64,000 nucleotides of DNA from the NCBI RefSeq assembly GCF_003991155.1, contig NZ_CP031293.1; one strand, given 5' to 3'. The DNA comes from Escherichia coli. GTDB lineage: Bacteria > Pseudomonadota > Gammaproteobacteria > Enterobacterales > Enterobacteriaceae. This document shows positions 25,267 to 49,015 of this stretch, piece after piece (position 1 is the first letter of the stretch; every line of letters starts with the position of its first letter). The notes under the pieces were generated by a model that was not told the DNA's origin, did no database searches, and was given only the letters and a program-made list of their open reading frames with translations. A program made the position numbers and the translations under genes.

Positions 25267-25276
25267 GGCTCCATCC

Positions 25277-28606: not shown

Positions 28607-28618
28607 TTTCAGTCTCCG

Positions 28619-29050
28619 TTAGGCGGCGTTAAACGCGTCCGGGTAGAGTTTCAGAATGTCGGCAATTTCCTGCTGAGAAAGTCCGTTGTGATCATTTATG
28701 TTCGCAAGATGGTTAATATGAGTGATCACTTTCAGAACATCACCACGGCAGGAGAAACGGTAGCGAAGGTGTGTTCCGATACCATCAGGATTCTTTTCGT
28801 CGATACGCTCCAGAGTGATTCCAAGCTGGCGTTCTAACTCTGTTGCATAGTTACGACCAGAAGACAGACGGCAGTAGCGAAGAATGTCATTTTCTGTCCA
28901 TCCCTCTATACCAGTACGCAGCATATAGACTCTGGCACGATGCTTTTTCGGTGTGCGCTTTGGTGCTTGAAGGGATTTTGTAAGGGGCGTAACATCAGAT
29001 ACACGAATATCTGAATTAGCCGCCTGTAATGGGCGGTTTTTCTTTTCCAT
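28619..29050 (-). CDS. Hypothetical protein (143 aa)
   Basis: ORF-track; immediately downstream of alpA. Confidence 0.35.
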   Translation of the reverse strand: MEKKNRPLQAANSDIRVSDVTPLTKSLQAPKRTPKKHRARVYMLRTGIEGWTENDILRYCRLSSGRNYATELERQLGITLERIDEKNPDGIGTHLRYRFSCRGDVLKVITHINHLANINDHNGLSQQEIADILKLYPDAFNAA

Positions 29051-29253
29051 CAGGCCACCTCGTCTCTAGATTCTAATATACACTTCTCAATCCATTCATC
29101 TATTTCAGACTCAACAAAAGCAATTGCCCGACTTCCAATTTTTACCTGTTTAGGGAACCTCCCCTGACTAATAAGACGATAAATCCATGCTTTGCTATAA
29201 CCAGTTCGCCTTTGAACTTCAGAGAGACGAATTAATGAATTGTAATTAGCCAT
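29050..29253 (-). CDS. alpA: AlpA-family transcriptional regulator/excisionase-like
   Basis: 67 aa MANYNSLIRLSEVQRRTGYSKAWIYRLISQGRFPKQVKIGSRAIAFVESEIDEWI; classic AlpA HTH. Confidence 0.75.
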   Translation of the reverse strand: MANYNSLIRLSEVQRRTGYSKAWIYRLISQGRFPKQVKIGSRAIAFVESEIDEWIEKCILESRDEVA

Positions 29254-29680
29254 TTATTAATATCCTGTACTAATGACGCAATAACCCCCTCCTGCAACGA
29301 ATGGCGAGAGTTTTATTTGCGTCAAATGTCGAATACGCCAAAGACCACAATATGAAAAACATATTGCGGTCTTTTATAAAAGATAGTCAGATTGTTTTGG
29401 TTTGTTTGCTCCACAAGGGTAGAGCTACCCTGCATTTCGGCAGGATCACGCTATTAGGCGTGACATCCAGTAGTTTTAAAGAACAATTGCGCTTTGTCAG
29501 CGCCAAAGCCTGTTAAAGAACATTCCGCTTTTCAGCAGCGTAGAAGGCTCAATACACCTTCGTTTATAAAAGAGCGATTGCCCTTCTCCAGGGCTAACTG
29601 TTAAATAGCAATCCTCTGTGAGTTTTTATCAATCTACTCCCCTATACTTTAGTAAACCTCTGTATACTTGTCCAGTTGTT

Positions 29681-30895: not shown

Positions 30896-30965
30896 TTGGG
30901 GGTACCTCCACTAAACCGAACAGCAAATACCCCCATAAGTACCCCCATCTGACCGTAGATTTTGA

Positions 30966-31043
30966 GGGACTTTAGTAGACGTCAAAAGACGAACGGGGCT
31001 TTAATACGCGGATTATAAGGGGTTTTGAAAGACTTTAGTAGAC
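30966..31043. promoter_or_regulatory. attL arm region with direct repeats GACTTTAGTAGAC x2
   Basis: Copies at 30967-30980 and 31031-31043 between integrase start and thrW; putative arm-type binding sites. Confidence 0.4.
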
Positions 31044-31060
31044 TTGGGGAGATGTTTGAA

Positions 31061-31136
31061 TGGTGCCGATAATAGGAGTCGAACCTACGACCTTCGCATT
31101 ACGAATGCGCTGCTCTACCAACTGAGCTATATCGGC
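31061..31136 (-). tRNA. thrW: tRNA-Thr (anticodon CGU)
   Basis: Reverse complement GCCGATATAGCTCAGTTGGTAGAGCAGCGCATTCGTAATGCG...GGTTCGACTCCTATTATCGGCACCA. Confidence 0.9.
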
Positions 31137-31250
31137 CCTGAAAGGACATATTCACGAACGTGAATCACGGTGGACAAGGTTAAAACTAACCGGGCGATGC
31201 GTCAATGGCCTTGTGAATCAAATGGCTACTTTTGCATCACCCGGTTTTAT

Positions 31251-32504
31251 TTACGCACGAATGGTGTAATCACCGATGCCGATCCACTTGTAAGTGGTCA
31301 GTGCTTCCAGGCCCATCGGGCCACGCGCGTGGAGTTTTTGTGTGCTTACCGCCACTTCCGCTCCCAGACCAAACTGGCCGCCGTCGGTAAAACGCGTAGA
31401 GGCGTTAACGTAAACAGCGGACGAATCCACTTCGTTAACAAAACGCTGGGCGTTGCGCATATCGCGGGTCAGGATCGCATCGGAGTGTTGCGTGCCGTGT
31501 TCACGAATATGGGCGATGGCATCGTCAAGATCGCTGACGATTTTGACGTTCAAATCTAATGACAGAAACTCATCGTCATACTCTTCGGCTTTAACCGCCA
31601 CCACCTTCGCGGGGCCTGTCTGCAACTGCGCCAGCGCAGCAGCATCTGCGTGTAACGTCACGCCGCTTTCCGCCATTTGCTTGCTTAATGCGGGCAGGAA
31701 GCTATCGGCGATGTTTTTATTTACCAGCAAGGTTTCTACCGTATTACATGTGCTCGGTCGCTGAGTTTTCGCGTTGACGATCACTTTTAATGCTTCAGCG
31801 ATCTCTGCGCTTTCATCAACGTAAATATGGCATACGCCTATACCACCAGTGATCACCGGGATTGTCGACTGTTCGCGGCACAGTTTATGCAAACCAGCCC
31901 CGCCGCGCGGGATCAGCATGTCGATGTATTTATCCATACGCAGCATTTCACTGACCAGCGCACGGTCAGGATTATCAATCGCCTGCACGGCACCCGCCGG
32001 TAAGCCACAGGATTTCAGGGCGTCCTGAATCACTGCCACCGTTGCCGCGTTAGTGCGACACGTTTCTTTGCCGCCGCGCAGGATCACTGCGTTACCTGTT
32101 TTCAGGCACAGCGAAGCGACATCAACCGTCACGTTCGGGCGCGCTTCATAAATCACGCCAATAACCCCCAGCGGTACGCGACGACGCTCCAGACGCAGGC
32201 CACTGTCCAGTACGCCGCCATCGATTACCCGCCCCACCGGATCGGCGAGATTGCACACCTGGCGCACATCGTCGGCAATGCCTTTCAGCCGTGCGGGCGT
32301 CAGTGCCAGACGGTCAAGCATCGCTTCGCTAAGGCCATTGGCACGCGCGTCAGCAACATCCTGGGCGTTAGCGTTGAGGATGATTTCGCTTTGTGCTTCC
32401 AGTTCATCGGCGATTTTTTCCAGCACGCGATTTTTTTCGCGGCTGGAGAGTTGCGCTAATTTATAAGAGGCTTGCTTCGCGGCAATGCCCATTTGTTCCA
32501 GCAT
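31251..32504 (-). CDS. proA: Gamma-glutamyl phosphate reductase
   Basis: 417 aa; recognised. Confidence 0.9.
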
Positions 32505-32515
32505 CAGCCTGCTCC

Positions 32516-33619
32516 TTAACGGGTAATCATGTCATCACGGTGAACGGCAACCGGGCCGTATTCATATCCCAGTATTGCATCAATTTCTTGCGAGTGGTGT
32601 CCGGCAATACGGCGTAATGCATCGCTGTTGTAACGACTGACGCCGTGAGCGATATCGCGACCTTCGAGGTTGCAAATGCGGATGACTTCACCACGCGAGA
32701 AGTTGCCAGTCACGCTTTTAATGCCTTTCGGCAACAGGGAGCTGCCGCGTTCGAGAATGGCGGCGGTTGCCCCTTCATCTACCGTGATTTCACCCGCCGG
32801 CGGCGCACCGAAAATCCAGCGTTTGCGGTTTTCAAGCGGAGTCGCCTGGGCATGGAACAACGTACCGACGGAGATGCCTTCCATCACATCACCAATAACG
32901 CCCGGCTTGCTGCCCGCGGCAATAATGGTGTCGATACCCGCACGGCAAGCCACGTCTGCGGCCTGCAATTTGGTACTCATGCCGCCAGTTCCGAGGCCTG
33001 AAACGCTGTCACCGGCAATCGCGCGCAGTGCGTCATCAATGCCGTAAACATCTTTAATCAGTTCTGCCTGCGGATTGCTGCGCGGGTCAGCGGTATACAA
33101 ACCTTTTTGATCGGTCAGCAGCAACAGTTTATCGGCACCCGCCAGAATCGCCGCCAGCGCAGAAAGGTTATCGTTATCGCCGACCTTAATCTCTGCAGTC
33201 GCGACAGCATCGTTCTCATTGATTACCGGAACGATATTGTTATCGAGCAACGCACGCATGGTGTCGCGGGCGTTCAGGAAGCGTTCACGGTCTTCCATAT
33301 CAGCACGGGTCAGCAACATCTGCCCGACATGAATGCCGTAAATTGAAAACAGCTGTTCCCACAGTTGAATCAGTCGACTCTGCCCTACCGCCGCCAGCAG
33401 TTGTTTCGAGGCGATAGTCGCTGGCAGTTCCGGGTAACCCAGGTGCTCACGTCCGGCGGCGATCGCGCCCGACGTCACAATAACAATCCGATGCCCGGCG
33501 GCATGTAACTGCGCGCACTGGCGAACAAGTTCAACGATATGGGCACGGTTCAGGCGGCGCGATCCGCCTGTTAGCACACTGGTGCCGAGTTTTACCACCA
33601 GCGTCTGGCTGTCACTCAT
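32516..33619 (-). CDS. proB: Glutamate 5-kinase
   Basis: Start at [19 protein letters not shown] (367 aa) inside the longer track ORF. Confidence 0.9.
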
Positions 33620-33906
33620 GATTCTCTGCCATTCAATTTTAGGAAAAATGATATCAAACGAACGTTTTAGCAGGACTGTCGTCGGTTGCCAACCATCTGC
33701 AAGCAAAGCATGGCGTTTTGTTGCGCGGGATCAGCAAGCGTAGCGGCAGTTGTTTACGCTTTTATTACAGATTTAATAAATTACCACATTTTAAGAATAT
33801 CATTAATCTGTAATATATCTTTAACAATCTCAGGTTAAAAACTTTCCTGTTTTCAACGGGGCTCTCCCGCTGAATATTCGCGCGTTAATTAAAATCAGGA
33901 ATGAAA

Positions 33907-34962
33907 ATGAAAAAGAGCACTCTGGCATTAGTGGTGATGGGCATTGTGGCATCTGCGTCCGTAAAGGCCGCAGAAATATATAACAAAGACGGTAATAAAC
34001 TGGATGTCTATGGCAAAGTTAAAGCCATGCATTATATGAGTGATAACGACAGTAAAGATGGCGACCAGAGTTATATCCGTTTTGGTTTTAAAGGCGAAAC
34101 ACAAATTAACGATCAACTGACGGGTTATGGTCGTTGGGAAGCAGAGTTTGCCGGTAATAAAGCGGAGAGTGATACTGCACAGCAAAAAACACGTCTCGCT
34201 TTTGCCGGGTTGAAATATAAAGATTTGGGTTCTTTCGATTATGGTCGTAACCTGGGCGCGCTGTATGACGTGGAAGCCTGGACCGATATGTTCCCGGAGT
34301 TTGGTGGCGACTCCTCCGCACAGACCGACAACTTTATGACCAAACGTGCCAGCGGTCTGGCGACGTATAGGAACACCGACTTCTTCGGCGTTATCGATGG
34401 TCTGAACTTAACCCTGCAATATCAAGGGAAAAACGAAAACCGCGACGTTAAAAAGCAAAACGGCGATGGCTTCGGCACGTCATTGACATATGACTTTGGT
34501 GGCAGCGATTTCGCCATCAGTGGAGCCTATACCAACTCTGATCGCACCAACGAGCAGAACCTGCAAAGCCGTGGTACAGGCAAGCGTGCAGAAGCATGGG
34601 CAACAGGTCTGAAATACGATGCCAATAATATTTATCTGGCAACTTTCTATTCTGAAACACGCAAAATGACGCCAATAACTGGCGGCTTTGCCAATAAGAC
34701 ACAGAACTTTGAAGCGGTCGCCCAATACCAGTTTGACTTTGGTCTGCGTCCGTCGCTGGGTTATGTCTTATCGAAAGGGAAAGATATTGAAGGAATCGGT
34801 GATGAAGATCTGGTCAATTATATCGATGTTGGTGCTACGTATTATTTCAACAAAAATATGTCGGCATTTGTTGATTATAAAATAAACCAACTGGATAGCG
34901 ATAATAAGCTGAACATCAATAATGATGATATTGTCGCGGTTGGCATGACCTATCAGTTTTAA
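33907..34962 (+). CDS. phoE: Outer-membrane phosphoporin
   Basis: 351 aa from [19 protein letters not shown]...; ends ..GMTYQF. Confidence 0.9.
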
Positions 34963-35000
34963 TGGATATTGCCGGATGTGATGCATCCGGCACATTTCAC

Positions 35001-35459
<459 letters not shown>

Positions 35460-36704
35460 TTAACACAATCGTTTTTCGATCCAGTCGGTGATTTCCTGAA
35501 GACCTTTGTCAAAATTCCGATACACCGGGTTAAATGGGATCTCTAACAATTTACCGTCAGCAGATGATGAGGTGATTAAGCGTGAGTCCTCTTCCGGGCT
35601 GAACGGATCGTTCTTCCAGTAGCCTGATAACATTGGCGTTGGGCAGCGACGTCCCAGCAATCCTTGCACTTTTAATGAATAGCGATTCAGCTCCACGCGC
35701 AACGCTTCGTCGGAAGCATCATGCATCCCCAAACGGCTCGCCAGAACGTCAAGATACATTTCCGGCACCTGTTGCTGGCACTTAAAATCACTCAACAGGG
35801 TATGAACTACCGGACCAAGACAGGCAACCGCTTTCAGACGCGGCGATTCAAGGTATGCCAGACGCACGGCAACGTTAGCGCCGAAACGGAAACCAAAGGC
35901 CGCGACGCGAGTGTGATCTACCCACGGTACGTTAGGCAGCGCCTTTAAGACGTGCTGATGCAACAGGCTGGAGTCCTGGGTGAGCTTCCATTTTGAAGAA
36001 AAGCCCACCGACGGCATATCAATAGTCAGCATCGCAATGCCGCGCGGCGCAAAATAACGTTCATACAGGCTGTAATAGTCCGTCTGCATCGCATCCAGAC
36101 CACCACACATTAATACTGTCGGGAACGGGCCATCACCTTTCGGCATATGCAAAAAGCCGGTGATGGGCGCACCGCCGGGTACGGTAAACTCCATCTGCCG
36201 CATCGTGCCCGGCAGACGCTGAGCGGCCTCTTCATAGGCGCGGTTTGACAAAGCCTGCGCTTGCTCGGCCAGGTCATCTCCTTTCAGATGAGGATAGGCA
36301 GCAATGTTGTACAACGTAGCCGCATGCAGCCAGTGTCGACCGCTGAGTTGCGGATCTTCTTCCGCACAGGCTTTTTGTTGCCACACCATCGCCTGGGTAG
36401 CCCACTCATAAATCCAGTTGCCGCCGCGGTAGCCAATCACCGTATCGTATAAATCATCGTCGGTACGTTCGGCATCGCTCATCACAATACGCGCCTGGAC
36501 GTCGAGGATTTCACGTGGGTCAATGCCGCGCCAGATCCACATCAGACGGTTAATCATGCGATACCAGTGAGGGATGGTTTTACCATCAAGGGCCGACTGC
36601 ACAGGCGGTTGTGCGCCGTGATTAAAGCGGCGGACTAGCGTCGAGGTTTCAGGATGTTTAAAGCGGGGTTTGAACAGGGTTTCGCTCAGGTTTGCCTGTG
36701 TCAT
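35460..36704 (-). CDS. frsA: Esterase FrsA
   Basis: 414 aa; recognised. Confidence 0.9.
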
Positions 36705-36795
36705 GGATGCAGCCTCCAGAATACTTACTGGAAACTATTGTAACCCGCCTGAAGTTAAAAAGAACAACGCCCGGCAGTGCCAGGCGTTGAAAAGA

Positions 36796-37254
36796 TTAGC
36801 GACCGGAGATTGGCGGGACGAATACGACGCCCATATCCCACGGCTGTTCAATCCAGGTATCTTGCGGGATATCAACAACATAGTCATCAACCAGCGGACG
36901 ACCAGCCGGTTTTGCGAAGATGGTGACAAAGTGCGCTTTTGGATACATTTCACGAATCGCAACCGCAGTACCACCGGTATCCACCAGGTCATCAATAACG
37001 ATGAAGCCTTCGCCATCGCCTTCTGCGCGTTTCAGCACTTTAAGCTCGCGCTGGTTGTCGTGATCGTAGCTGGAAATACAAACGGTATCGACATGACGAA
37101 TACCCAGTTCACGCGCCAGTAACGCACCCGGTACCAGACCGCCACGGCTTACGGCAATAATGCCTTTCCATTGTTCAGAAGGCATCAGTCGGCTTGCGAG
37201 TTTACGTGCATGGATCTGCAACATGTCCCAGGTGACGATGTATTTTTCGCTCAT
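36796..37254 (-). CDS. gpt: Xanthine-guanine phosphoribosyltransferase
   Basis: 152 aa [23 protein letters not shown]... Confidence 0.9.
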
Positions 37255-37514
37255 GTGAAGTGTCCCAGCCTGTTTATCTACGGCTTAAAAAGTGTTCGAG
37301 GGGAAAATAGGTTGCGCGAGATTATAGAGATCTGGCGCACTAAAAACCAGTATTTCACATGAGTCCGCGTCTTTTTACGCACTGCCTCTCCCTGACGCGG
37401 GATAAAGTGGTATTCTCAAACATATCTCGCAAGCCTGTCTTGTGTTGACAACATTTTCTGCTAACCCTGTGACCTGCAATACTGTTTTGCGGGTGATCGA
37501 CAAGGAGACTTAAC

Positions 37515-38972
37515 GTGTCTGAACTGTCTCAATTATCTCCACAGCCGCTGTGGGATATTTTTGCCAAAATCTGTTCTATTCCTCACCCGTCCTATCATGA
37601 AGAGCAACTCGCTGAATACATTGTTGGTTGGGCAAAAGAGAAAGGTTTCCATGTCGAACGCGATCAGGTAGGTAATATCCTGATTCGTAAACCTGCTACC
37701 GCAGGTATGGAAAATCGTAAACCGGTCGTCTTGCAGGCCCACCTCGATATGGTGCCGCAGAAAAATAACGACACCGTGCATGACTTCACTAAAGATCCTA
37801 TCCAGCCTTATATTGATGGCGAATGGGTTAAAGCGCGCGGCACCACGCTGGGTGCGGATAACGGCATTGGTATGGCCTCTGCACTGGCGGTTCTGGCTGA
37901 CGAAAACGTGGTTCACGGCCCGCTGGAAGTGCTGCTGACCATGACCGAAGAAGCCGGTATGGACGGTGCTTTTGGCTTACAGAGCAACTGGTTGCAGGCT
38001 GATATTCTGATTAACACCGACTCCGAAGAAGAAGGTGAAATCTACATGGGTTGTGCGGGGGGTATCGACTTCACCTCCAACCTGCATTTAGATCGTGAAG
38101 CGGTTCCAGCTGGTTTTGAAACCTTCAAGTTAACCTTAAAAGGTCTGAAAGGCGGTCACTCCGGCGGTGAAATCCACGTTGGCCTGGGTAATGCCAACAA
38201 ACTGCTGGTGCGCTTCCTGGCGGGTCATGCGGAAGAGCTGGACCTGCGCCTTATCGATTTCAACGGTGGCACACTGCGTAACGCCATCCCGCGTGAAGCC
38301 TTTGCGACGATTGCTGTCGCAGCTGATAAAGTCGACGCACTGAAATCTCTGGTGAATACCTATCAGGAGATCCTGAAAAACGAGCTGGCAGAGAAAGAGA
38401 AAAATCTGGCATTGCTGCTGGACTCTGTTGCGAACGATAAAGCTGCCCTGATTGCGAAATCTCGCGATACCTTTATTCGTCTGCTGAACGCCACCCCGAA
38501 CGGTGTGATCCGCAACTCCGACGTGGCAAAAGGCGTGGTCGAAACCTCCCTGAACGTCGGTGTGGTGACCATGACTGACAATAACGTAGAAATTCACTGC
38601 CTGATCCGTTCTCTGATCGACAGCGGTAAAGACTACGTGGTGAGCATGCTGGATTCTCTGGGTAAACTGGCTGGCGCGAAAACCGAAGCGAAAGGCGCAT
38701 ATCCTGGCTGGCAGCCGGACGCTAATTCTCCGGTGATGCATCTGGTACGTGAAACCTATCAGCGTCTGTTCAACAAGACGCCGAACATCCAGATTATCCA
38801 CGCGGGCCTGGAATGTGGTCTGTTCAAAAAACCGTATCCGGAAATGGACATGGTTTCTATCGGGCCAACCATTACCGGTCCACACTCTCCGGATGAGCAG
38901 GTTCATATCGAAAGCGTTGGTCATTACTGGACACTGCTGACTGAACTGCTGAAAGAAATTCCGGCGAAGTAA
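37515..38972 (+). CDS. pepD: Cytosol nonspecific dipeptidase (aminoacyl-histidine dipeptidase)
   Basis: 485 aa; recognised. Confidence 0.9.
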   Translation: MSELSQLSPQPLWDIFAKICSIPHPSYHEEQLAEYIVGWAKEKGFHVERDQVGNILIRKPATAGMENRKPVVLQAHLDMVPQKNNDTVHDFTKDPIQPYIDGEWVKARGTTLGADNGIGMASALAVLADENVVHGPLEVLLTMTEEAGMDGAFGLQSNWLQADILINTDSEEEGEIYMGCAGGIDFTSNLHLDREAVPAGFETFKLTLKGLKGGHSGGEIHVGLGNANKLLVRFLAGHAEELDLRLIDFNGGTLRNAIPREAFATIAVAADKVDALKSLVNTYQEILKNELAEKEKNLALLLDSVANDKAALIAKSRDTFIRLLNATPNGVIRNSDVAKGVVETSLNVGVVTMTDNNVEIHCLIRSLIDSGKDYVVSMLDSLGKLAGAKTEAKGAYPGWQPDANSPVMHLVRETYQRLFNKTPNIQIIHAGLECGLFKKPYPEMDMVSIGPTITGPHSPDEQVHIESVGHYWTLLTELLKEIPAK

Positions 38973-39278
38973 TAACGATAACGTCCACGCCTGCGGGCGT
39001 GGACTTCTGTTTGAAGCCAATGGCTATCTATATCGAAATAACAAAACATTATGAAACTCATGAAAAGGTCGCATATTTATATAGCTGCGACCATATTTCA
39101 TGGGGGGAGTTTCTGATCACCAAAGAAAGTTTTGCGCTGGAATCCGTGAAAGAACTTAAGGGTGAAAAGCAGAATTTTTATATGTTCAGAGCCTGGGGCA
39201 AAGTCAGGAAAACATACTTAGCCACGGGAGAATTTCCCCAGGAAACATGTTACGCCGCTTAAAGTCAGAATTATTTTT

Positions 39279-39842
39279 TCATGCATTTACCATTTTGGCA
39301 TTACGCCTGTACCACATGGCAATGGCGGCAACCACTAATGCCAGTTCAAGTAAAAACGACCAGTGTAATAAAAAATTGAGCCACCACGGATGATGTACCG
39401 CCGTAATATGAAAGAGTGCAAAGGGTTGGTTAACGAAAGGCATCAACCACCAGATATCACCGACCAGCGTATCGAGTAATAAATGCACGATACCATTCAG
39501 GCAAAACACCACGCCCAACCACGCCGGAAGTTTATTCTTCGCAATTGCGGCCCAAACTAATGTCGCCGCCAGCAGAGCAAACCATAATAATGGCCAATGA
39601 GACGGGTAAAGATGATGATGGCGTTGCCCGTTATCAACCAGATAGCACCAGAAAAGATCAAAATCGGGCGCAATGGCCCCAACTAAGCCAATAACCATCG
39701 CCCAGCGCGCATGACGAGCAATCAGTGGCAAGCGTTTCACTAAAGTACAAGTTATTAAATAACCAGCCGGAAGATGACCGATAAACATGACGATTCCTTT
39801 CGTTTTGCCCGCCGCTTTCATATAGAAAACGGCGGGAGACAT
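39279..39842 (-). CDS. Polytopic inner-membrane protein, His-rich (metal-dependent hydrolase-like)
   Basis: 187 aa with multiple TM segments and H-rich motifs; family assignment tentative. Confidence 0.45.
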   Translation of the reverse strand: MSPAVFYMKAAGKTKGIVMFIGHLPAGYLITCTLVKRLPLIARHARWAMVIGLVGAIAPDFDLFWCYLVDNGQRHHHLYPSHWPLLWFALLAATLVWAAIAKNKLPAWLGVVFCLNGIVHLLLDTLVGDIWWLMPFVNQPFALFHITAVHHPWWLNFLLHWSFLLELALVVAAIAMWYRRNAKMVNA

Positions 39843-39849
39843 TCCTCAA

Positions 39850-40464
39850 TTACACAGCAACAAAAGCCATCCCTGTAAATGTCCGTCGCGGGTTGCCACG
39901 TTCAATCTGGTGATGGAACATTCGCCGCTGCGATTTCAGCACCGCGCTATTTTCCTGTTGCTGTTGTTCCAGCTTCCATGCAATCAGCAATCGCGCCAGC
40001 CGCTTGTTAGCATGCTGACTACGCTCTGACTGAACCTTCACGCTAATTCCGGTAGCCAAATGCGTGGCGCGTACCGCCGAGTCGGTTTTATTGACATGTT
40101 GACCGCCCGGCCCCGACGAACGCAGCGTCTCATAACGGATCGCGTCGGATTGCTCCTGCTCATCAGCGGTAAAACGCCCAATGCCCAGAAACCAGTTTTT
40201 GCGCCTATGATGAGGCCGATACGGACTCGGACAAATCCACTGAATAGTGCCGCACCAACTTTCGCTTAATGCCCATGCGTTATCGCCATCCAGAGAAACC
40301 AGCGCTGAACGCAGCGTGTCAGAGTAGCGGCCCGTTTCTGTTTCCAGCACCGTTACCGCGACGTCTTGTCGGGTAGCTTCTTTAATCAGCCTGTCCAGCG
40401 CCTTTTTCACTGCCAGGCAACATTCTTCCGGCCCCTGAGCTGAGGAGAGTTGTAGCAAGATCAT
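39850..40464 (-). CDS. prfH: Peptide chain release factor homolog PrfH (full length)
   Basis: [40 protein letters not shown] (GGQ motif); start taken at [11 protein letters not shown]. Confidence 0.7.
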
Positions 40465-41600
40465 CCTTTTTTCCCTCCACTGTTTTTGAGCGTTAGCACC
40501 GGACGCAGTCGCGCGACAGGAATAATTAACCCAGCCTGCACCAGACATTGCACCACGCTTTCAGCCGATTTATAAGCTTGTGGCGCTTCTTCAAAGATGA
40601 GTTGTTTATCGCGACAAATTACCCGGCTGCCAAGTTCAGTACGTGAGAGCTGCGTCGCTGTGTATTTCGCTGCCAGACGCCCTTTACACTCAGTACGTCC
40701 CCATTTGCGCCCTGCCCCATGCGCCAGCGAGTGGAGCGTTTTTTCGTTCGCAACAGGTTTAACCAGCCAGGAGTAATCGCCGCGTGAACCGGGAATAATC
40801 ACCAGACCGTTGTCATCCGGCGTGGCGCCTTTACGATGCAACCAGCCCTGTTGATCGCCGATTTGGCACGCGCTAACAAAGTTATGCGCCACATCCAGAA
40901 CCGGACTTCCGGTGGCCTTAACTTGTTGCATTATGCGCAAAGCGATCAGCTGGCGATTAATACGCGCAAACGCCAGCGCATCATCATGTTCCACAATATA
41001 ACTTAGCGCGTCGTCACTGCCTTCAGGCAAACCATGATGCGAAAACGAGGCAATATGCCGCTGTAAAATAGACTGGCCCAAACCCCGCGAGCCGCTATGA
41101 ACCAGCAGTTGCAGATGCTGCGCATCCAGACCTGTCAGTGCAAACAGTTCAGCGTCGATAATTTGATCAACTTGTTGCAGTTCTGCGAAGTGGTTTCCGC
41201 CACCGATGGAACCCAGCGAGCTGCGCCACGGATGCTGTGCTAACGCTGACGGCAGGTTTTCCTCCAGCCAGCTTTCTTCAGCAACGTCATCCAGCGCAGA
41301 TAATCGCTTTTCAAACTTATCGGCGTTGTATTTGCGCGCGAAAATATCTGTTTGCCATAGCGCCATACCGCAGCCGATATCATTGCCGACCAGTGCCGGG
41401 TAAAAACGGCCTACGGAGAAGAACGCTGCGCCAATCGGATAGCCGCGTCCGGGGTGTAAATCTGGCATCCCTACTACGCGTTGCATGTCGGGTAAATTTG
41501 CCGTGGTGTGTAATTGTTGGATCGCTAAACTCTCGATCCACAGGTCATCAGATGCGATGGTAAATACCGCATCGGATAAGGGACGAATATATTTGCCCAT
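40461..41600 (-). CDS. RtcB-family RNA ligase paralog (prfH-associated)
   Basis: About 380 aa with His/Cys-rich RtcB-like motifs; stop overlaps prfH start. Confidence 0.7.
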
Positions 41601-41790
41601 GTACCATTCCATTTATGAATAAAAATCAGGAAATGGCAGACGAATCCAGGGCAAGAAAAAAAGAATTAATCCTGGAAAGGTCTGCAAAGAGTCATTGATA
41701 AAGGATTTGTCATGATTTACCTCCTTGCAGTTTGTGGAATAAGAAAACGCGCACATACTAGGCGGGCGTTATTTTCTTTGCAAGCTGGAT

Positions 41791-42243
41791 TTAATGTTGC
41801 GGTTTATATCGCATATAAAAATTAGTAAACCACGCTCCCCGGCATTCAACGCGCTGCTGCTTAACTGTCTGAAAACCATAACGTTCAAAAAAGGGTTTTG
41901 CGGTTATGCTGGCATCTACCGTTAGTTCGGATTCAGACTTAATCAAAGGTTTTAACAAAGCGCTGGCAACCCCACGGCGGGTGTATTCAGGGTCAACAAA
42001 TAACATATCGATATAGTGTTCAACGCAGGTAATAAAGCCGACCAGTTTTGCATTAATGACTGCAACCCGCACTTGTGATTTCGCGAGTTTCTCCTTCCAG
42101 CGAGATTCGTCAATCTGCGCCCAGGCGGCAATTTGTTGTGGTGAATAATGCTGACTGGCGGTCATCGTAACCGCTCTAAGGAAAATAGCGCATAGTTGCT
42201 GAAAATCGCCAGGCTGATAGTTTCTTATTTGTATGTTATTCAT
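41791..42243 (-). CDS. yafP: GNAT-family acetyltransferase
   Basis: 150 aa; start codon overlaps dinB stop (ATGA). Confidence 0.8.
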
Positions 42244-43295
42244 AATCCCAGCACCAGTTGTCTTTCCATTTGAGGGTCAAGTAACGTCACATGCAGCCCC
42301 ACCAGACGCACACCGCGCCCGCCACGGCGTTCATTCCAGGTTTTACGCGCGGTGGCGATTAAGTCAGCTTTATTCAGCCGCGGCCAGACGTGCTCCTGAG
42401 TGGTTTGCTGAAAATCATCAAACTTTAATTTCACCCCCTGGCGAGCAATCAGTAAATCAGGTTTTACCTTTGCCAGACGGCGTTCAAGTTCAGGATACAG
42501 CCGCTCAATAATCGCTTCACATTCAGACCAGTGATGAATATCTTCCGCCATCGTGCGTTCCACGCCGACGGATTTTCGCAACCGTTCGCTGTTAACGTCG
42601 CGCTCGTCAATCCCCTGACTACGCTCCCACAAAATGCGTCCAAATTTGCCAAAACGTTTGAGCAGAGTCACCAGATCACACTTTTGCACATCACCGCAGG
42701 TCCGCAGCCCCATCGCTTCCAGTTTTGCCGCCGAGACTTTGCCGACGCCGGGAATTTTTGCCAGCGGTAAGGTTTGCAGAAATGCCGGAACTTCTGCCGG
42801 CGTAATCACAAACTGACCGTTGGGTTTATTCATGTCGGAAGCAATTTTGGCGAGAAACTTTACCGGCGCAACGCCCGCAGATGCCGTCAGTTGCAGCTCG
42901 TTAAAGATCGTCTGGCGGATTTCCTGGGCGATGAGGGTCGCGGAGCCGTGGCAATGCACACTATCGGTGACGTCGAGATAGGCTTCATCCAGTGATAACG
43001 GTTCAATGCGCGAGGTATAGCGCGAGAAAATTTCGCGGATATGATTTGAGGCTTCTTTGTAGGCGTCAAAGCGCCCTGGAAGCAGCGTGAGATGTGGGCA
43101 TAATTTGAGCGCCATCCCTGTCGGCATAGCGCTGCGTACGCCAAATTTACGCGCGGGATAATTGGCGGTGCTGATCACCCCCCGACGTTCGCGGCTGCCG
43201 CCAATAGCAATAGGGATATCGCGCAGGGCAGGATTGTCGCGCATCTCCACCGCTGCGAAAAAGCAGTCCATATCCACATGAATGATTTTACGCAT
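42240..43295 (-). CDS. dinB: DNA polymerase IV
   Basis: 351 aa [22 protein letters not shown]... Confidence 0.9.
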
Positions 43296-43309
43296 TGCTC
43301 ACCTCTCAA

Positions 43310-43329
43310 CACTGGTAAAGTATACAGTG
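43310..43329. promoter_or_regulatory. LexA (SOS) box upstream of dinB
   Basis: CACTGGTAAAGTATACAGTG palindrome (CTG-N10-CAG) about 15 bp upstream of dinB start. Confidence 0.55.
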
Positions 43330-43365
43330 ATTTCAGGGCTTGAGAAATGCGTAAAGATTCAGCAT

Positions 43366-44256
43366 TTAACGCGTTCGCTGTGAAAGCACCTGCTGCTTAT
43401 CCAGCTTTTGCACCAGCGGCTGCACCACTTTATCCCCATGCTGACCAAAGTATTGATACAGCGTATCGGACGCGCTTTTAGTCAGCACCATAATCTCAAT
43501 GCGCCGGTTGCCCGCGCTTTGCGGATTTTTCGCGTCCAGCAGCATCTGGTCCGCCATTGCGCTCACCTGCATCACTTTATCTTCCGGCATTCCTGCCTCT
43601 TCCAGCACCCGACGAGCCGAAAGCGCGCGGTCACCCGAAAGGTTCCAGTTGTTGTAGATATTGTTTTTGTAGGCCATCGCATCGGTATGCCCGGTAATAA
43701 TAATTTTGTTATCGAGCGAGTCGAACACTGGCGCGAGCTCCACCAGCAGCGTTTTAAAGAACGGCATAATCTGCGCGCTGCCACGTTCGAACATATTGCG
43801 ATTCTGGTCGTCTTTAATCAGCACGCGTAATCCCTGCGGGACAATCTCCATCTCCAGATTCGCTTCCATATGCGCATCACGGGCAATGGTGTTGATACTG
43901 GTTGCCAGCTCACCAAGCTCGGTGGCGGATTTCTTCTTCAGCAGCGCCGTTTTCTCGTTGACGTCGCGCGCTTTTTTCTCCGTTTCTTCCGGCACCGCCA
44001 CGGTGGCAGGTTTTGACGGATGAGACGGGCTGATTTTATTTAACGGCGACAGCCCACCACCGTTAAAAATCGACTGCCCGTGCAGCGCGGCGATAATGCT
44101 TTCACGCTCGGATTTACTGACGCTGTTGACAATCAACTTTATCGTCGTCACCAAAGGGGCCGAGCGTATTTCCGAGGTTTCTGCCCGCTTTACCCTGGAC
44201 GCGATGCCCGGCAAGCAGATGGCGATTGACGCCGATCTTAACGCCGGGTTGATCAA
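43366..44256 (-). pseudogene. lafU: Flag-2 remnant: MotB-like LafU fragment (C-terminal OmpA-like domain retained)
   Basis: C-terminal ..IIITGHTDAMAYKNNIYNNWNLSGDRALSARRVLEEAGMP... MotB/OmpA-like; N-terminus lacks the expected TM anchor; frame overlaps lfhA remnant. Confidence 0.55.
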
Positions 44257-45835
44257 TCAGGCGCAGGCGCAGACCCGGCGTAAAGATGTTGCCAGCGAGG
44301 CCGATTTCTACGGCGCGATGGACGGGGCATCGAAGTTTGTGCGCGGGGATGCCATCGCCGGGATGATGATTCTGGCGATCAACCTGATCGGCGGCGTCTG
44401 TATCGGGATCTTCAAATACAACCTGAGCGCCGACGCCGCCTTCCAGCAGTATGTGCTGATGACCATCGGCGACGGGCTGGTGGCGCAGATCCCTTCCCTG
44501 CTGCTCTCCACCGCGGCGGCGATTATCGTCACCCGCGTCAGCGACAACGGCGATATCGCCCATGACGTGCGCCACCAGCTGCTGGCAAGCCCGTCGGTGC
44601 TCTACACCGCCACCGGGATCATGTTTGTGCTGGCGGTGGTGCCGGGGATGCCGCATCTGCCATTTTTGCTGTTCAGCGCCCTGCTTGGCTTTACCGGCTG
44701 GCGGATGAGCAAACGCCCGCAGGCGGCGGAGGCGGAAGAGAAAAGCCTCGAAACACTGACCCGCACCATCACCGAAACCAGCGAGCAACAGGTCAGTTGG
44801 GAAACCATTCCGCTGATCGAGCCTATCAGCTTAAGTCTCGGCTACAAGCTGGTGGCGCTGGTGGACAAAGCGCAGGGGAACCCGCTCACCCAGCGGATTC
44901 GCGGCGTGCGGCAGGTGATATCCGACGGCAACGGCGTGCTGCTACCGGAGATCCGCATTCGGGAAAACTTCCGCCTCAAGCCCAGCCAGTACGCCATTTT
45001 CATCAACGGCATTAAGGCTGATGAAGCGGATATTCCGGCGGATAAACTGATGGCCCTGCCCTCCAGTGAAACCTACGGTGAGATTGACGGCGTGCTGGGG
45101 AACGACCCGGCGTATGGGATGCCGGTCACCTGGATCCAGCCCGCGCAGAAGGCGAAGGCGCTGAATATGGGGTATCAGGTGATCGACAGCGCCAGCGTAA
45201 TTGCCACACATGTGAATAAGATTGTGCGCAGCTATATTCCTGACCTCTTTAACTATGACGATATTACGCAGTTGCATAACCGCCTGTCGTCGATGGCACC
45301 GCGCCTGGCGGAGGATTTGAGCGCGGCGCTCAATTACAGTCAGTTGCTGAAAGTGTACCGGGCGCTGCTGACCGAAGGCGTTTCCCTGCGCGATATCGTC
45401 ACCATCGCCACCGTGCTGGTTGCCAGTAGCGCGGTGACCAAAGATCATATTCTGCTGGCGGCTGATGTGCGCCTGGCGCTGCGGCGCAGCATTACCCATC
45501 CGTTCGTTCGCAAACAGGAGCTGACGGTGTATACGCTGAATAATGAGCTGGAAAATCTGCTGACCAACGTAGTGAATCAGGCGCAACAGGGCGGCAAAGT
45601 GATGCTCGACAGCGTGCCGGTGGACCCGAATATGCTTAACCAGTTCCAGAACACGATGCCGCAGGTGAAGGAGCAGATGAAAGCGGCGGGGAAAGACCCT
45701 GTGCTGCTGGTGCCTCCGCAGTTGCGCCCTTTGCTGGCGCGCTACGCAAGGTTGTTTGCGCCGGGGCTGCATGTGCTGTCGTATAACGAAGTGCCGGACG
45801 AGCTGGAGTTGAAGATTATGGGGGCGTTGATGTAG
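44096..45835 (+). pseudogene. lfhA: Flag-2 remnant: FlhA-like LfhA fragment (N-terminally truncated)
   Basis: 579 aa FlhA-like C-terminal region (..FVRGDAIAGMMILAINLIGG..) without the N-terminal membrane domain. Confidence 0.6.
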
Positions 45836-45945
45836 GTATCCGGCATCTGCGCACAACCGCCGGATGCGGCGTGAACGCCTTATCCGGCCTACCGTTCAGG
45901 CACGATTCGTAGGCTAAGCGTAAGCGCATCCGGCATCGGCGCGCA
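45836..45945. repeat. REP/BIME elements
   Basis: GCCGGATGCGGCGTGAACGCCTTATCCGGCCTAC and related REP palindromes. Confidence 0.6.
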
Positions 45946-45946
45946 A

Positions 45947-46444
45947 TTATACAATGATACGCTCCCCGGCACTAAAATCCGTTACGTCCCCCGCCCAATC
46001 GATGGGATATAACCCCTTCGCGACATCGCGATGAAACGTTGAGAATGGCCAATCACTCACTTGCTTTACCCAGCCATGTTTTACTGGATTTATATAAATA
46101 TAATCAACATGATGGCGATAGTCTTTGGTATTGCGGATGGCGTGCTCCCAAAAACGCGGTTGCCAGATATTTTGCAATCCACAAGCATGGGTGAACTGTT
46201 TTTTAATCTCCCGCCAGCGAGAGGAAAAATCATCATCGCTTTCGGGTAATGTCCAGATACAGTGCATATGCTCCGGCAAAACTACCCAGGCGTTAATTTC
46301 AAAAGGTCTGGCTCGCTTAACGTTAATAATGACTTTACGGAGCATCTGGAACTGAGCGGTCAGAAGATGGCTTCGACGATTTCGTAGGTTAACCGTGAAA
46401 AACCAGGTTCCCCCTTTGATGTAATAACGACGATATTCAGACAT
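45947..46444 (-). CDS. rayT: REP-associated tyrosine transposase
   Basis: 165 aa IS200-like TnpA fold flanked by REP sequences on both sides. Confidence 0.8.
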   Translation of the reverse strand: MSEYRRYYIKGGTWFFTVNLRNRRSHLLTAQFQMLRKVIINVKRARPFEINAWVVLPEHMHCIWTLPESDDDFSSRWREIKKQFTHACGLQNIWQPRFWEHAIRNTKDYRHHVDYIYINPVKHGWVKQVSDWPFSTFHRDVAKGLYPIDWAGDVTDFSAGERIIV

Positions 46445-46620: not shown

Positions 46621-47369
46621 TACAAAATCGTCTCTTCCGTCAAAATCCGCCGCGCGCCTAAAAAATGATCCTGCCAGAAAGGTTCAGCTAACCGGCTTAT
46701 CCGAATGGTTTCGCCGGTACGTGGTGACTCGATAAACTGACCGTCTCCCAGATACACCCCCATATGATCGGCTATCTCGCGGCTGTGAATATGGAAAAAC
46801 AGCAAATCTCCCCGGCGCAGGTCGTTGTTCGCCACAATCGTTGCCCGATGGTAGTGATACATCTCATTGGCTGTGCGCGGGAGCTTCGCCTCAAGGATCT
46901 TGTTGTAGGCATAAAAAACCAACCCGCTACAGTCGAAGCCTTTATCGGGCCGCGTGCCGCCCCAGACATAAGGCTTGCCAAGCTGCTGCTCCAGGCGGTG
47001 AATCGCCACTTCGGTGATGTTATGCAGGTGATCGCTGCTTAAAAAGTGGTTGTTTTCCGCCAGCGCCTGCCAGCGTCTGTCACTCGCCTTGAGCGGCGCA
47101 GGAAACCATTCTGGATGCTGTTTTATCTGCTCCCGGTTGTGCTGGCGTAGCGCCCTTCTGCTTTCGGCATTGCCTTCCACAATATAGCTGGCCTGTTTTT
47201 TCAGATGGGTTTGGTACTGTTTTAATAAACGCGCACGGTTTTGCATCCGCTGGCGGGCGGCGTAGCTGAAAGAGATATGTGATGTGGTGGCGCTGGCAAA
47301 TGAAGAAAACGGCAAGCAAAGCAACAGTAATCCCGACAACACAAAAGAGGGAATCGACGGCAAAGACAT
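46620..47369 (-). CDS. yafL: NlpC/P60-family lipoprotein peptidase
   Basis: ..GKPYVWGGTRPDKGFDCSGLV.. NlpC/P60 catalytic Cys motif; start taken at MSLPSIPSFVL. Confidence 0.8.
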   Translation of the reverse strand: MSLPSIPSFVLSGLLLLCLPFSSFASATTSHISFSYAARQRMQNRARLLKQYQTHLKKQASYIVEGNAESRRALRQHNREQIKQHPEWFPAPLKASDRRWQALAENNHFLSSDHLHNITEVAIHRLEQQLGKPYVWGGTRPDKGFDCSGLVFYAYNKILEAKLPRTANEMYHYHRATIVANNDLRRGDLLFFHIHSREIADHMGVYLGDGQFIESPRTGETIRISRLAEPFWQDHFLGARRILTEETIL

Positions 47370-47546
47370 TCTCAATAATGGCTGGTCATGCATTGATGTT
47401 GCAGTGTATCCCGGCCCGTACCTGAACAAACTTAATAAACCATTATTATAAAATTAATAAATATATTTCAGTTAATTATGTAAAAACATCCGTTTATTAA
47501 ATTACTCATGGATTGTCGCTGTTGCTCATTTGAGCTACAATTCAAG

Positions 47547-47562
47547 CTGAATAAATATACAG
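47547..47562. promoter_or_regulatory. LexA-box-like site upstream of dinJ
   Basis: CTGAATAAATATACAG (CTG-N10-CAG) about 17 bp upstream of dinJ start. Confidence 0.45.
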
Positions 47563-47578
47563 CACAGGAGATATCCCA

Positions 47579-47839
47579 ATGGCTGCTAACGCGTTTGTTC
47601 GCGCCCGAATCGATGAAGATCTGAAGAATCAGGCGGCGGACGTACTGGCCGGGATGGGGCTGACCATCTCTGACCTGGTTCGCATAACCCTCACAAAGGT
47701 CGCGCGTGAAAAGGCATTGCCGTTTGATTTACGCGAGCCTAATCAATTAACTATTCAATCAATCAAAAACAGCGAAGCTGGCGTTGGTATTCATAAGGCC
47801 AAAGACGCCGATGATTTATTTGATAAATTAGGAATTTAA
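47579..47839 (+). CDS. dinJ: DinJ antitoxin
   Basis: 86 aa MAANAFVRARIDEDLKNQAADVLAGMGLTISDLVRITL... Confidence 0.85.
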   Translation: MAANAFVRARIDEDLKNQAADVLAGMGLTISDLVRITLTKVAREKALPFDLREPNQLTIQSIKNSEAGVGIHKAKDADDLFDKLGI

Positions 47840-47841: not shown

Positions 47842-48118
47842 ATGATTCAAAGGGATATTGAATACTCGGGACAATTTTCAAAGGATGTAAAACTTGCACA
47901 AAAGCGTCATAAGGATATGAATAAATTGAAATATCTTATGACGCTCTTATCAATAATACTTTACTGCTTCCAGCTGTTTATAAAGACCACCCGCTGCAAG
48001 GTTCATGGAAAGGTTATCGCGATGCTCATGTCGAACCGGACTGGATCCTGATTTACAAACTTACCGATAAACTTTTACGATTTGAGAGAACTGGAACTCA
48101 CGCGGCGCTATTTGGGTA
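47842..48118 (+). pseudogene. yafQ: YafQ toxin gene with apparent 1-bp frameshift
   Basis: Frame 1 gives MIQRDIEYSGQFSKDVKLAQKRHKDMNKLKYLMTLL then aberrant tail to stop at 48048; +1 frame from about 47951 gives NNTL.LPAVYKDHPLQGSWKGYRDAHVEPDWILIYKLTDKLLRFERTGTHAALFG* ending 48118. Confidence 0.6.
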
Positions 48119-48274
48119 AAGCCCGCTGCCGATGAAATTTGTAAACCCTGCGCCGACAGGCTTGCGTAAAACTCTTTTGGTGATAATGTGAGCCTTCCAA
48201 ATCCAGACTATTCCGATTTGGGATCCATTTTGCCGTCCTGGCGTGTGTAACCGTTTTATCAAGGAATAAGCAGT

Positions 48275-49015
48275 ATGCGTAAAATCGCATTAATTCTTGC
48301 GATGTTGTTGATCCCGTGCGTTTCGTTTGCCGGTTTGCTGGGCAGCAGTAGCTCGACCACGCCAGTGAGCAAAGAGTATAAGCAGCAGTTGATGGGATCC
48401 CCTGTCTACATCCAGATCTTCAAGGAAGAACGTACGCTCGATCTCTACGTCAAAATGGGCGAGCAATATCAACTGCTCGACAGCTATAAAATCTGTAAAT
48501 ATTCCGGCGGCTTAGGGCCAAAACAGCGTCAGGGCGATTTCAAAAGCCCGGAAGGGTTTTATAGCGTCCAGCGTAATCAGTTAAAACCAGACAGCCGTTA
48601 CTACAAAGCGATTAATATTGGATTCCCCAATGCCTATGACCGTGCGCATGGTTATGAAGGGAAATATCTGATGATCCACGGCGATTGTGTTTCCATCGGC
48701 TGCTACGCGATGACCAATCAGGGTATTGATGAGATCTTCCAGTTCGTTACTGGTGCGCTGGTGTTTGGTCAGCCGAGCGTGCAAGTGAGTATTTACCCGT
48801 TCCGCATGACCGACGCCAATATGAAGCGCCATAAATATTCCAACTTTAAGGACTTCTGGGAGCAACTGAAGCCGGGCTACGACTACTTTGAGCAAACCCG
48901 TAAGCCACCGACCGTTTCTGTGGTCAATGGCCGTTACGTGGTCAGCAAGCCGTTAAGCCACGAAGTTGTGCAGCCACAGCTGGCATCAAACTACACGCTC
49001 CCCGAGGCAAAATAA
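48275..49015 (+). CDS. yafK: L,D-transpeptidase-fold periplasmic protein
   Basis: 246 aa with signal peptide; YkuD-like HGDCVSIGC catalytic motif. Confidence 0.85.

What the first reader, a model, noticed from the sequence alone, without database searches (positions are those of the whole stretch)
47842..48118. dinJ-yafQ module with the toxin gene apparently frameshifted while the antitoxin is intact
The yafQ reading frame switches after codon 36 (..KYLMTLL). The conserved RelE-like C-terminal half (..AVYKDHPLQGSWKGYRDAHVEPDWILIYKL..) is in the +1 frame and terminates at 48118, consistent with a single-base deletion near 47950. dinJ (86 aa) and its LexA-like box are intact.
Basis: partly seen in the sequence, partly recalled or inferred. 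Interest (0 to 1): 0.45.

Follow-up and report, generated by a model that had tools for sequence, protein, structure and literature searches.

The report
Frameshifted yafQ toxin, intact dinJ antitoxin
This E. coli chromosome carries a dinJ-yafQ toxin-antitoxin pair whose toxin gene was inactivated by loss of one base; the change is real, is shared by 157 complete genomes, is already flagged as a pseudogene in RefSeq, and is ordinary gene decay rather than something new.

Summary
Compared with E. coli K-12, yafQ (window 47842-48119) lacks one T between 47944 and 47945 (codon 35; ACG CTT CTT ATC becomes ACG CTC TTA TCA). Frame 1 gives a 69-aa product: 36 YafQ residues, then 33 out-of-frame residues, with a stop at 48049-48051. 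The rest of YafQ, including catalytic residues H50, H63, D67 and H87, is undamaged but lies in the -1 frame and has no ATG, GTG or TTG to restart from. dinJ (47579-47839), its ribosome-binding site, its promoter-like hexamers and the LexA-type box (47547-47562) are intact.

It is not a sequencing error. A junction-specific search finds the identical deletion in 157 of 5,426 complete E. coli genomes, and the site is not a homopolymer. RefSeq already marks the gene "frameshifted" in SMS-3-5. The nearest intact allele found is in strain CE10.

The allele marks a sub-clade; SMS-3-5, ST648 and CE10 are phylogroup F by my own knowledge. Within the clade dinJ is identical in 157 genomes and the pseudogene in 156. 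An intact antitoxin here is therefore not evidence of selection.

yafQ carries other lesions in other lineages, and about 2,100 genomes lack the module.

Verdict: a real, lineage-fixed toxin pseudogene with a leftover antitoxin. Already known; low interest.

The parts
47513..47541 (+). Promoter-like -35 (TTGTCG) and -10 (TACAAT) hexamers upstream of dinJ
   Evidence: Consensus scan only. The sequence is identical to K-12. Function is inferred from K-12.
47547..47562 (+). LexA-type box CTGAATAAATATACAG
   Evidence: Pattern match. The pattern alone is barely enriched in the window (23 matches against 14 expected). The site is identical to K-12, where LexA binding to the dinJ promoter is reported (PMC4996492, introduction).
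47566..47570 (+). Shine-Dalgarno AGGAG for dinJ
   Evidence: Read directly from the sequence. One C-to-T difference from K-12 lies 3 nt downstream, at 47573.
47579..47839 (+). dinJ, intact antitoxin and repressor gene (86 aa)
   Evidence: ORF. NCBIfam TIGR02384 RelB_DinJ scores 83.7 bits against a cut-off of 45.65. PDB 4ML0_A and 4Q2U_A match at E about 7e-50. The allele is perfectly identical in 157 genomes.
47842..48119 (+). yafQ pseudogene (whole former reading frame, 278 nt instead of 279)
   Evidence: Alignment to K-12 and CE10. PGAP marks it 'frameshifted' in SMS-3-5. The pseudogene is perfectly identical in 156 genomes.
47944..47945 (+). Site of the 1-nt (T) deletion, codon 35
   Evidence: A junction-specific 51-mer is found in 157 of 5,426 genomes.
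47842..48051 (+). Frame-1 ORF actually encoded: 69 aa (36 YafQ residues plus 33 out-of-frame residues)
   Evidence: It scores 27 bits against a cut-off of 87.25 on the YafQ model, and only residues 3-36 match.
47949..48119 (+). Undamaged coding remnant for YafQ residues 37-92 (including H50, H63, D67, H87) in the -1 frame
   Evidence: There is no ATG, GTG or TTG in this frame after the stop at 47922.
48275..49015 (+). dpaA (yafK), the downstream neighbour, possibly co-transcribed with the module
   Evidence: Annotation of the identical sequence. The co-transcription suggestion comes from the table in PMC5120126.

Best explanation
This is the chromosomal dinJ-yafQ type II toxin-antitoxin operon of E. 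coli with the toxin gene inactivated by loss of one T in codon 35. Translation from the normal yafQ start gives a 69-residue product that keeps only the first 36 residues of the RelE-fold RNase and lacks all four catalytic residues, so the ribosome-dependent mRNA-cleaving activity is gone. This is inferred from the sequence and from published structure-function work; it was not assayed here. The mutation arose once, in an ancestor of a sub-clade that includes SMS-3-5 and the strain named ST648, and was inherited by all 157 carriers among complete genomes. dinJ, its promoter and its LexA box are untouched. DinJ is therefore presumably still made and still represses its own promoter, and it may keep its reported side role of repressing cspE and so lowering RpoS. 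That persistence could simply reflect too little elapsed time for decay, and nothing here shows that dinJ is kept by selection.
For: Shown here:
- Exactly one missing base relative to K-12 and CE10.
- The truncated product fails the YafQ family cut-off (27 against 87.25 bits), while the T-restored protein passes (115.3 bits) and differs from crystallised YafQ at 2 of 92 residues.
- H50, H63, D67 and H87 are encoded only in the -1 frame, and no canonical start codon serves that frame.
- The identical junction is present in 157 of 5,426 complete genomes, always once and always chromosomal.
- PGAP already calls it frameshifted.
- CE10 carries the nearest intact allele found, sharing Y12F and P42L.
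- dinJ is perfect in 157 genomes and yafQ' in 156.
- Outside recombination patches the flanks of the window, SMS-3-5 and CE10 are almost identical, so this lack of variation is expected.

From the literature:
- Catalytic residues, the DinJ ribbon-helix-helix repressor, absence of conditional cooperativity, LexA binding, and cspE/RpoS control (PMC4996492).
- dinJ-yafQ occurs only in phylogroup F within the F/G/B2 lineage (PMC6896753).
- Orphan antitoxins are abundant in E. coli (PMC10790755).
Against: There is no expression or toxicity data for this allele. The 69-aa product could in principle retain some DinJ-binding or other activity. Continued DinJ function is inferred from K-12 work; the window's DinJ differs from K-12 at three adjacent residues (I68V, D69G, V70I), and the effect of these changes is unknown. 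The first two are also present in strains with intact yafQ (CE10, W21).
Confidence: 0.9

Rival explanations
1. The missing base is a sequencing or assembly error, and the strain really has an intact yafQ.
For: Single-base indels are the commonest assembly error, and no reads are available for this window.
Against: The identical junction occurs in 157 complete genomes. Judging by the spread of accession series and submitters, these come from many laboratories and sequencing eras, from SMS-3-5 to recent assemblies. The 278-nt pseudogene is perfectly identical in 156 of them. The site (GC-TCTT) is not a homopolymer run. The deletion count (157) equals the count of one specific dinJ allele carrying V70I, as expected for an inherited haplotype.
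Confidence: 0.01
2. The frameshift is compensated during expression by programmed -1 ribosomal frameshifting or transcriptional slippage, so full-length active YafQ is still made at a low, regulated level.
For: The downstream coding sequence is completely undamaged and identical in 156 genomes. That is what a recoded gene would look like. It is also what a young pseudogene looks like.
Against: There is no X XXY YYZ slippery heptamer anywhere in the zero frame of the 69-codon ORF, and no homopolymer of 4 or more within about 40 nt of the lesion. dinJ is equally invariant and the clonal-frame flanks are nearly identical, so conservation of the downstream half carries no signal. The intact relatives need no recoding.
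Confidence: 0.02
3. Loss of YafQ was adaptive and DinJ has been kept as a stand-alone factor. It might act as an autoregulated repressor tuning cspE/RpoS, or as an anti-addiction protein neutralising incoming plasmid-borne YafQ-family toxins.
For: yafQ carries different lesions in several lineages while dinJ stays intact. In QEC11-421, yafQ has a 9-nt deletion, a nonsense codon and two missense changes, but dinJ has only two synonymous changes; about 220 genomes share the 9-nt deletion. O157:H7 genomes carry a 2-nt deletion (295 genomes), and in Sakai dinJ is still transcribed and induced at stationary phase (PMC2241611). In K-12, YafQ slows growth at 18 C when DinJ is absent, and DinJ lowers RpoS (PMC4996492). 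dinJ-yafQ relatives exist on enterobacterial plasmids at about 68-85% nucleotide identity.
Against: In the window's own clade neither gene shows any variation, so selection on dinJ cannot be detected. Toxin-first decay is expected under neutrality, because antitoxin-first loss is lethal. The counts from other lineages are very small. The O157 allele may not be a null, since an alternative TTG start gives an 86-aa protein. Near-identical plasmid copies appear to be F-prime-type episomes or mislabelled chromosomes rather than natural plasmids. Cross-neutralisation at about 70% identity is untested, and non-cognate crosstalk is described as rare (PMC12301738 abstract).
Confidence: 0.15
4. The 69-aa hybrid product is itself functional, for example as a DinJ-binding decoy or co-repressor or as a small hydrophobic peptide.
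For: The ORF keeps its start codon immediately after the dinJ stop, so it is probably translated. The new tail (SIILYCFQLFIKTTRCKVHGKVIAMLMSNRTGS) is partly hydrophobic.
Against: Only residues 3-36 resemble YafQ, which is about a third of a single-domain fold and unlikely to fold stably. The tail is simply the out-of-frame reading of yafQ; the same peptide appears in the off-frame translation of the intact CE10 and K-12 genes, so it was not shaped by selection.
Confidence: 0.03

Closest known systems
E. coli K-12 dinJ-yafQ type II toxin-antitoxin operon (b0226-b0225; structures 4ML0, 4Q2U, 4ML2)
   Same: Same chromosomal site between yafL and dpaA(yafK). Same promoter region and LexA box, and the same 2-nt gap between the genes. 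About 98.6% nucleotide identity over 791 nt. DinJ differs from K-12 at 3 of 86 residues. The T-restored YafQ differs at 2 of 92 residues.
   Different: One T is missing in codon 35, so no full-length YafQ is encoded and the toxin half is a pseudogene.
yafQ pseudogene allele annotated in E. coli SMS-3-5 (ECSMS35_RS01180, 'frameshifted') and 156 other complete genomes
   Same: 100% identical over the 791-nt locus in the listed hits, with the same deletion.
   Different: Nothing at the locus itself. The flanks differ: SMS-3-5 keeps a full Flag-2 flagellar cluster and is about 1.35% divergent over 19.9 kb, in recombination patches.
Intact dinJ-yafQ of E. coli CE10 (WP_000729709 / WP_000615978)
   Same: Nearest intact allele found. 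Its YafQ equals the T-restored window protein (Y12F, P42L). Its DinJ differs from the window's only at V70I.
   Different: CE10 keeps the T and so encodes the full 92-aa toxin.
Orphan antitoxins and decaying chromosomal TA modules in E. coli generally
   Same: The toxin is lost first and the antitoxin persists. This is reported as abundant across E. coli lineages (PMC10790755).
   Different: Here the toxin remnant is still fully recognisable and is one base away from restoration.

Membership tests
RelB/DinJ family antitoxin (type II TA) | Full-length match to the family profile above the curated cut-off | tested here: met
   TIGR02384 scores 83.7 bits against a cut-off of 45.65, covering residues 1-84.
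RelB/DinJ family antitoxin (type II TA) | N-terminal ribbon-helix-helix DNA-binding region and C-terminal toxin-binding region as in crystallised DinJ | tested here: met
   The window DinJ differs from 4ML0_A at only 2 of 86 residues, positions 69 and 70. Residues 1-67 are identical to K-12. The domain roles are taken from PMC4996492.
YafQ family toxin (RelE/ParE superfamily RNase) | Full-length match of the encoded protein to the YafQ profile above the curated cut-off | tested here: not met
   The actual 69-aa product scores 27 bits against a cut-off of 87.25, and only residues 3-36 align. The hypothetical T-restored protein scores 115.3 bits.
YafQ family toxin (RelE/ParE superfamily RNase) | Catalytic residues H50, H63, D67 and H87 present in the translated product | tested here: not met
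   All four are encoded only in the -1 frame downstream of the deletion, and no canonical start codon serves that frame. The residue list is from PMC4996492, citing PMC4652777.
Functional type II toxin-antitoxin module | Antitoxin-toxin bicistronic operon with an autoregulated promoter | tested here: met
   dinJ is followed 2 nt later by the yafQ start. The upstream region is identical to K-12 apart from one base near the ribosome-binding site.
Functional type II toxin-antitoxin module | The toxin arrests growth and the antitoxin neutralises it | not testable with these tools
   This needs a cloning and induction assay. The sequence predicts no toxicity.
Programmed -1 frameshift (recoded) gene | Slippery heptamer X XXY YYZ, or a homopolymer slippage tract, at the frame junction | tested here: not met
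   There is no heptamer in the zero frame of 47842-48051, and no run of 4 or more within about 40 nt of 47944.

The most novel reading that the evidence does not exclude
yafQ has acquired different disabling or potentially disabling lesions in several successful E. coli lineages: this clade (157 genomes), a lineage with a 9-nt deletion (about 220 genomes; a nonsense codon was confirmed in the one genome examined), and O157:H7 (295 genomes). dinJ stays intact in all of them. This could mean that toxin loss is selectively favoured and that DinJ has been domesticated as a free-standing stress regulator (cspE/RpoS) or as an anti-addiction factor, rather than being a leftover that has not yet decayed.
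Probability: 0.15. Interest if true: 0.35.

Novelty: already known. Interest (0 to 1): 0.1.

Why it matters
It matters little. The practical lesson is that presence/absence surveys and transcriptome studies that count dinJ-yafQ as a working toxin-antitoxin system will be wrong for this clade, and possibly for O157:H7 and another lineage. One O157:H7 transcriptome paper treats the locus as functional (PMC2241611). The locus is also a natural example of the first step of TA decay: the toxin is dead, the antitoxin is intact, and one base would restore the toxin. A strain carrying it could be used to ask whether DinJ has a toxin-independent role.

Tried and rejected
1. Test for selection on dinJ inside the clade. 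I counted perfect matches using E-value cut-offs that sit between a perfect match and a single mismatch. dinJ gave 157 and yafQ' gave 156, so there is essentially no variation and the test is uninformative.

2. The identical 1-kb segment between the window and SMS-3-5, despite 1.35% divergence over 19.9 kb, briefly suggested that the dead allele had spread by recombination. A 500-bp binned three-way comparison with CE10 showed that the divergence sits in imported patches, on an otherwise near-identical clonal frame. I dropped the idea.

3. Plasmid-borne copies, for the anti-addiction idea. The hits at 95% identity or more appear to be F-prime-type episomes (100-400 kb, laboratory or cell-culture sources) or megabase-sized records that look like mislabelled chromosomes. 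True plasmid relatives are only about 68-85% identical. This neither supports nor excludes the idea.

4. Recoding signals. None were found.

5. Literature searches for a description of this frameshift. I found no paper describing it, only the RefSeq annotation flag.

6. I first counted the O157:H7 2-nt deletion as a clear independent null. I withdrew that after seeing that an alternative TTG start gives an 86-aa protein with the catalytic residues, which is annotated as a CDS in Sakai.

7. I assumed LWY24 was collinear with the whole window. That was wrong: it matches from 31,063 onward, and at 361-11,496 with an offset, but carries a different island next to tRNA-Thr.

Full report
**What is there.** The window is E. 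coli chromosome, in the order flhA remnant, rayT, yafL, dinJ, yafQ, dpaA (yafK), yafJ, lpcA, fadE.
- dinJ occupies 47579-47839 and encodes an intact 86-aa protein.
- An ATG two bases after its stop, at 47842, opens a reading frame. It follows YafQ for 36 residues (…KYLMTLL), continues with 33 unrelated residues, and ends at a TGA at 48049-48051.
- The rest of YafQ, INNTLLLPAVYKDHPLQG…THAALFG, is read without interruption in the frame of 47844 and ends at TAA 48117-48119.

**The lesion.** Alignment with K-12 MG1655 shows one gap in the whole 791-nt locus: a T of the K-12 sequence ACG CTT CTT ATC is missing, giving ACG CTC TTA TCA.
- The deletion lies between window 47944 and 47945, in codon 35.
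- The protein reads correctly through codon 36 only because CTC TTA still encodes Leu-Leu.
The C-terminal half is in the -1 (+2) frame rather than +1, the lesion is 5 nt upstream of "near 47950", and the gene ends at 48119 rather than 48118.

**Real or artefact.** The 791-nt locus is 100% identical, deletion included, to at least 30 complete genomes.
- I designed a 51-nt query centred on the junction, with both flanks shorter than the 28-nt megablast seed, so that only genomes carrying the deletion can match.
- It hit 157 of 5,426 complete E. coli genomes, each once, always on the chromosome, and all at 100%.
- The corresponding K-12 junction hit 3,139 genomes.
- The carriers come from humans, poultry, cattle, dogs, wild birds, a dolphin and wastewater.
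- The site is not a homopolymer.
- RefSeq/PGAP already annotates the gene as "frameshifted" in SMS-3-5.
- A sequencing error is therefore excluded for practical purposes.

**Consequence for the toxin.**
- The 69-aa product scores 27 bits on the NCBIfam YafQ model against a cut-off of 87.25, with only residues 3-36 aligned.
- Restoring the T gives 115.3 bits and a protein that differs from crystallised YafQ (4ML2, 4ML0_B, 4Q2U_B) at 2 of 92 positions.
- The residues reported to carry out acid-base catalysis, H50, H63, D67 and H87 (PMC4996492 citing PMC4652777), are all encoded downstream of the shift.
- In that frame there is no ATG, GTG or TTG after the stop at 47922, so I see no way to translate the C-terminal half independently.
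- There is no slippery heptamer in the zero frame and no homopolymer tract near the lesion, so there is no sequence basis for recoding.
- I conclude that the toxin is inactive. This is an inference from sequence and published structure-function data, not an assay.

**The antitoxin and control region.**
- DinJ passes the RelB/DinJ model (83.7 bits against a cut-off of 45.65) and matches 4ML0_A and 4Q2U_A at E about 7e-50.
- It differs from K-12 at I68V, D69G and V70I. The first two changes also occur in strains with intact yafQ (CE10, W21), so they are not a consequence of toxin loss. V70I was seen only in the deletion carriers among the eight sequences compared (window plus seven reference genomes).
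- The 99 nt upstream of dinJ are identical to K-12 except for one base next to the Shine-Dalgarno sequence. They include promoter-like hexamers at 47513-47541 and the CTG-N10-CAG box at 47547-47562.
- In K-12, DinJ represses its own promoter without conditional cooperativity, LexA binds the promoter, and DinJ also represses cspE and thereby lowers RpoS (PMC4996492).
- It is therefore reasonable, but not shown, that this locus still produces an autoregulated DinJ.

**Where the allele sits in the species.**
- dinJ-yafQ is reported in all genomes of the E/B1/A lineage and, within the F/G/B2 lineage, only in phylogroup F (PMC6896753).
- SMS-3-5, ST648 strains and CE10 are phylogroup F by my own knowledge.
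- CE10 carries the nearest intact allele found: its YafQ equals the T-restored window protein.
- The window's dinJ allele is at least 99% identical in 179 genomes and perfectly identical in 157, the same number that carry the deletion. The pseudogene is perfectly identical in 156.
- The deletion therefore marks a sub-clade and has a single origin.
- The window and SMS-3-5 differ by 1.35% over 19.9 kb, which at first seemed at odds with zero differences at the locus.
- A binned three-way comparison with CE10 shows that the differences lie in recombination patches, on an almost identical clonal frame. The lack of variation is therefore expected.
- Consequently, the intact state of dinJ in this clade says nothing about selection, because the pseudogene has not decayed further either.

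**Wider pattern, seen in passing.** About 3,324 genomes carry the module and about 2,100 lack it entirely. In genomes that lack it, similarity to the window begins at 48135, 16 nt after the yafQ stop. yafQ carries other lesions elsewhere:
- **9-nt deletion.** An in-frame deletion of INN37-39 is present in about 220 genomes. In QEC11-421 it is accompanied by K48stop and two missense changes, while dinJ shows only two synonymous changes.
- **O157:H7.** A 2-nt deletion at nt 21-22 is present in 295 genomes.
- **Strain 10153.** A 6-nt deletion removes the start codon.

The O157 case is ambiguous. PGAP calls it frameshifted, but Sakai's own annotation uses an alternative TTG start that yields an 86-aa protein with all catalytic residues. 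A 2007 transcriptome study of Sakai treats the locus as a working TA system, and shows dinJ induced at entry to stationary phase (PMC2241611). Toxin-first decay with a persisting antitoxin is the expected order, because losing the antitoxin first is lethal, and orphan antitoxins are reported as abundant in E. coli (PMC10790755). Whether DinJ is retained for a function of its own remains open.

**Anti-addiction idea.** Most plasmid records with 95% identity or more to the module are 100-400-kb plasmids from laboratory or cell-culture E. coli, which I take to be F-prime-type episomes carrying chromosomal DNA, or megabase-sized records that look like mislabelled chromosomes. Natural plasmid relatives are about 68-85% identical. 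Non-cognate crosstalk is described as rare (PMC12301738 abstract). This reading is not excluded, but it has no positive support.

**Verdict.** The observation and the interpretation are both correct. The feature is a lineage-fixed, already annotated toxin pseudogene in a well-studied TA operon. It is ordinary gene decay and of low interest.

Noticed in passing
L005 1363-1639; L011 (Sakai) 11930-12190; not in the window: O157:H7 genomes (295 complete genomes) carry a different yafQ lesion, a 2-nt deletion at nt 21-22. PGAP calls it 'frameshifted', but Sakai's own annotation calls an 86-aa CDS from an alternative TTG start that keeps all catalytic residues. A transcriptome paper treats the locus as a working TA system. 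Its functional status is unresolved.
   Followed up: partly
L007 1363-1632 (QEC11-421); not in the window: About 220 complete genomes share a 9-nt in-frame deletion in yafQ (INN37-39). In QEC11-421 it comes with K48stop, K24N and an Ile-to-Leu change, while dinJ has only two synonymous changes. This is a weak hint of purifying selection on an orphan dinJ. I confirmed the stop codon in only one genome.
   Followed up: partly
L006 1348-1635 (strain 10153); not in the window: A 6-nt deletion removes the yafQ ATG. PGAP instead annotates a 95-aa CDS that starts inside dinJ.
   Followed up: no
window 48135 (right boundary); L008 2330-2640: About 2,100 of 5,426 complete genomes (for example SaT040) lack dinJ-yafQ altogether. 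Similarity to the window starts sharply at 48135, 16 nt after the yafQ stop, and unrelated sequence replaces the module and the yafL-proximal spacer.
   Followed up: partly
window about 41791-43295: dinB and yafP are adjacent with no yafN-yafO between them, judged by collinearity with LWY24 (31063-44615, one mismatch). A second K-12 toxin-antitoxin module is therefore absent from this neighbourhood. The dinB LexA box (CTGTATACTTTACCAG on the - strand) is at 43312-43327.
   Followed up: partly
window about 43366-46000: The Flag-2 lateral flagellar cluster is reduced to lafU plus a truncated flhA, as in K-12 and CE10. SMS-3-5, which carries the identical yafQ lesion, keeps the full cluster. The Flag-2 deletion and the yafQ frameshift are therefore independent events.
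   Followed up: partly
window about 11497-31062: A 19.6-kb island lies next to tRNA-Thr. It encodes an integrase, a TOPRIM/DUF927 primase, a phage DNA ejection protein, a lytic transglycosylase and an antirepressor. It differs from the 13.5-kb capsid-encoding island at the same site in the otherwise identical strain LWY24. At least 80% of it is covered in 51 complete genomes.
   Followed up: partly
window 47000-47500 and 45000-45500: These are short patches of high divergence (17 and about 32-36 differences per 500 bp) between the window and both SMS-3-5 and CE10, which are nearly identical to each other there. They are likely recombination imports into the yafL 5' region and near rayT/flhA.
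   Followed up: no
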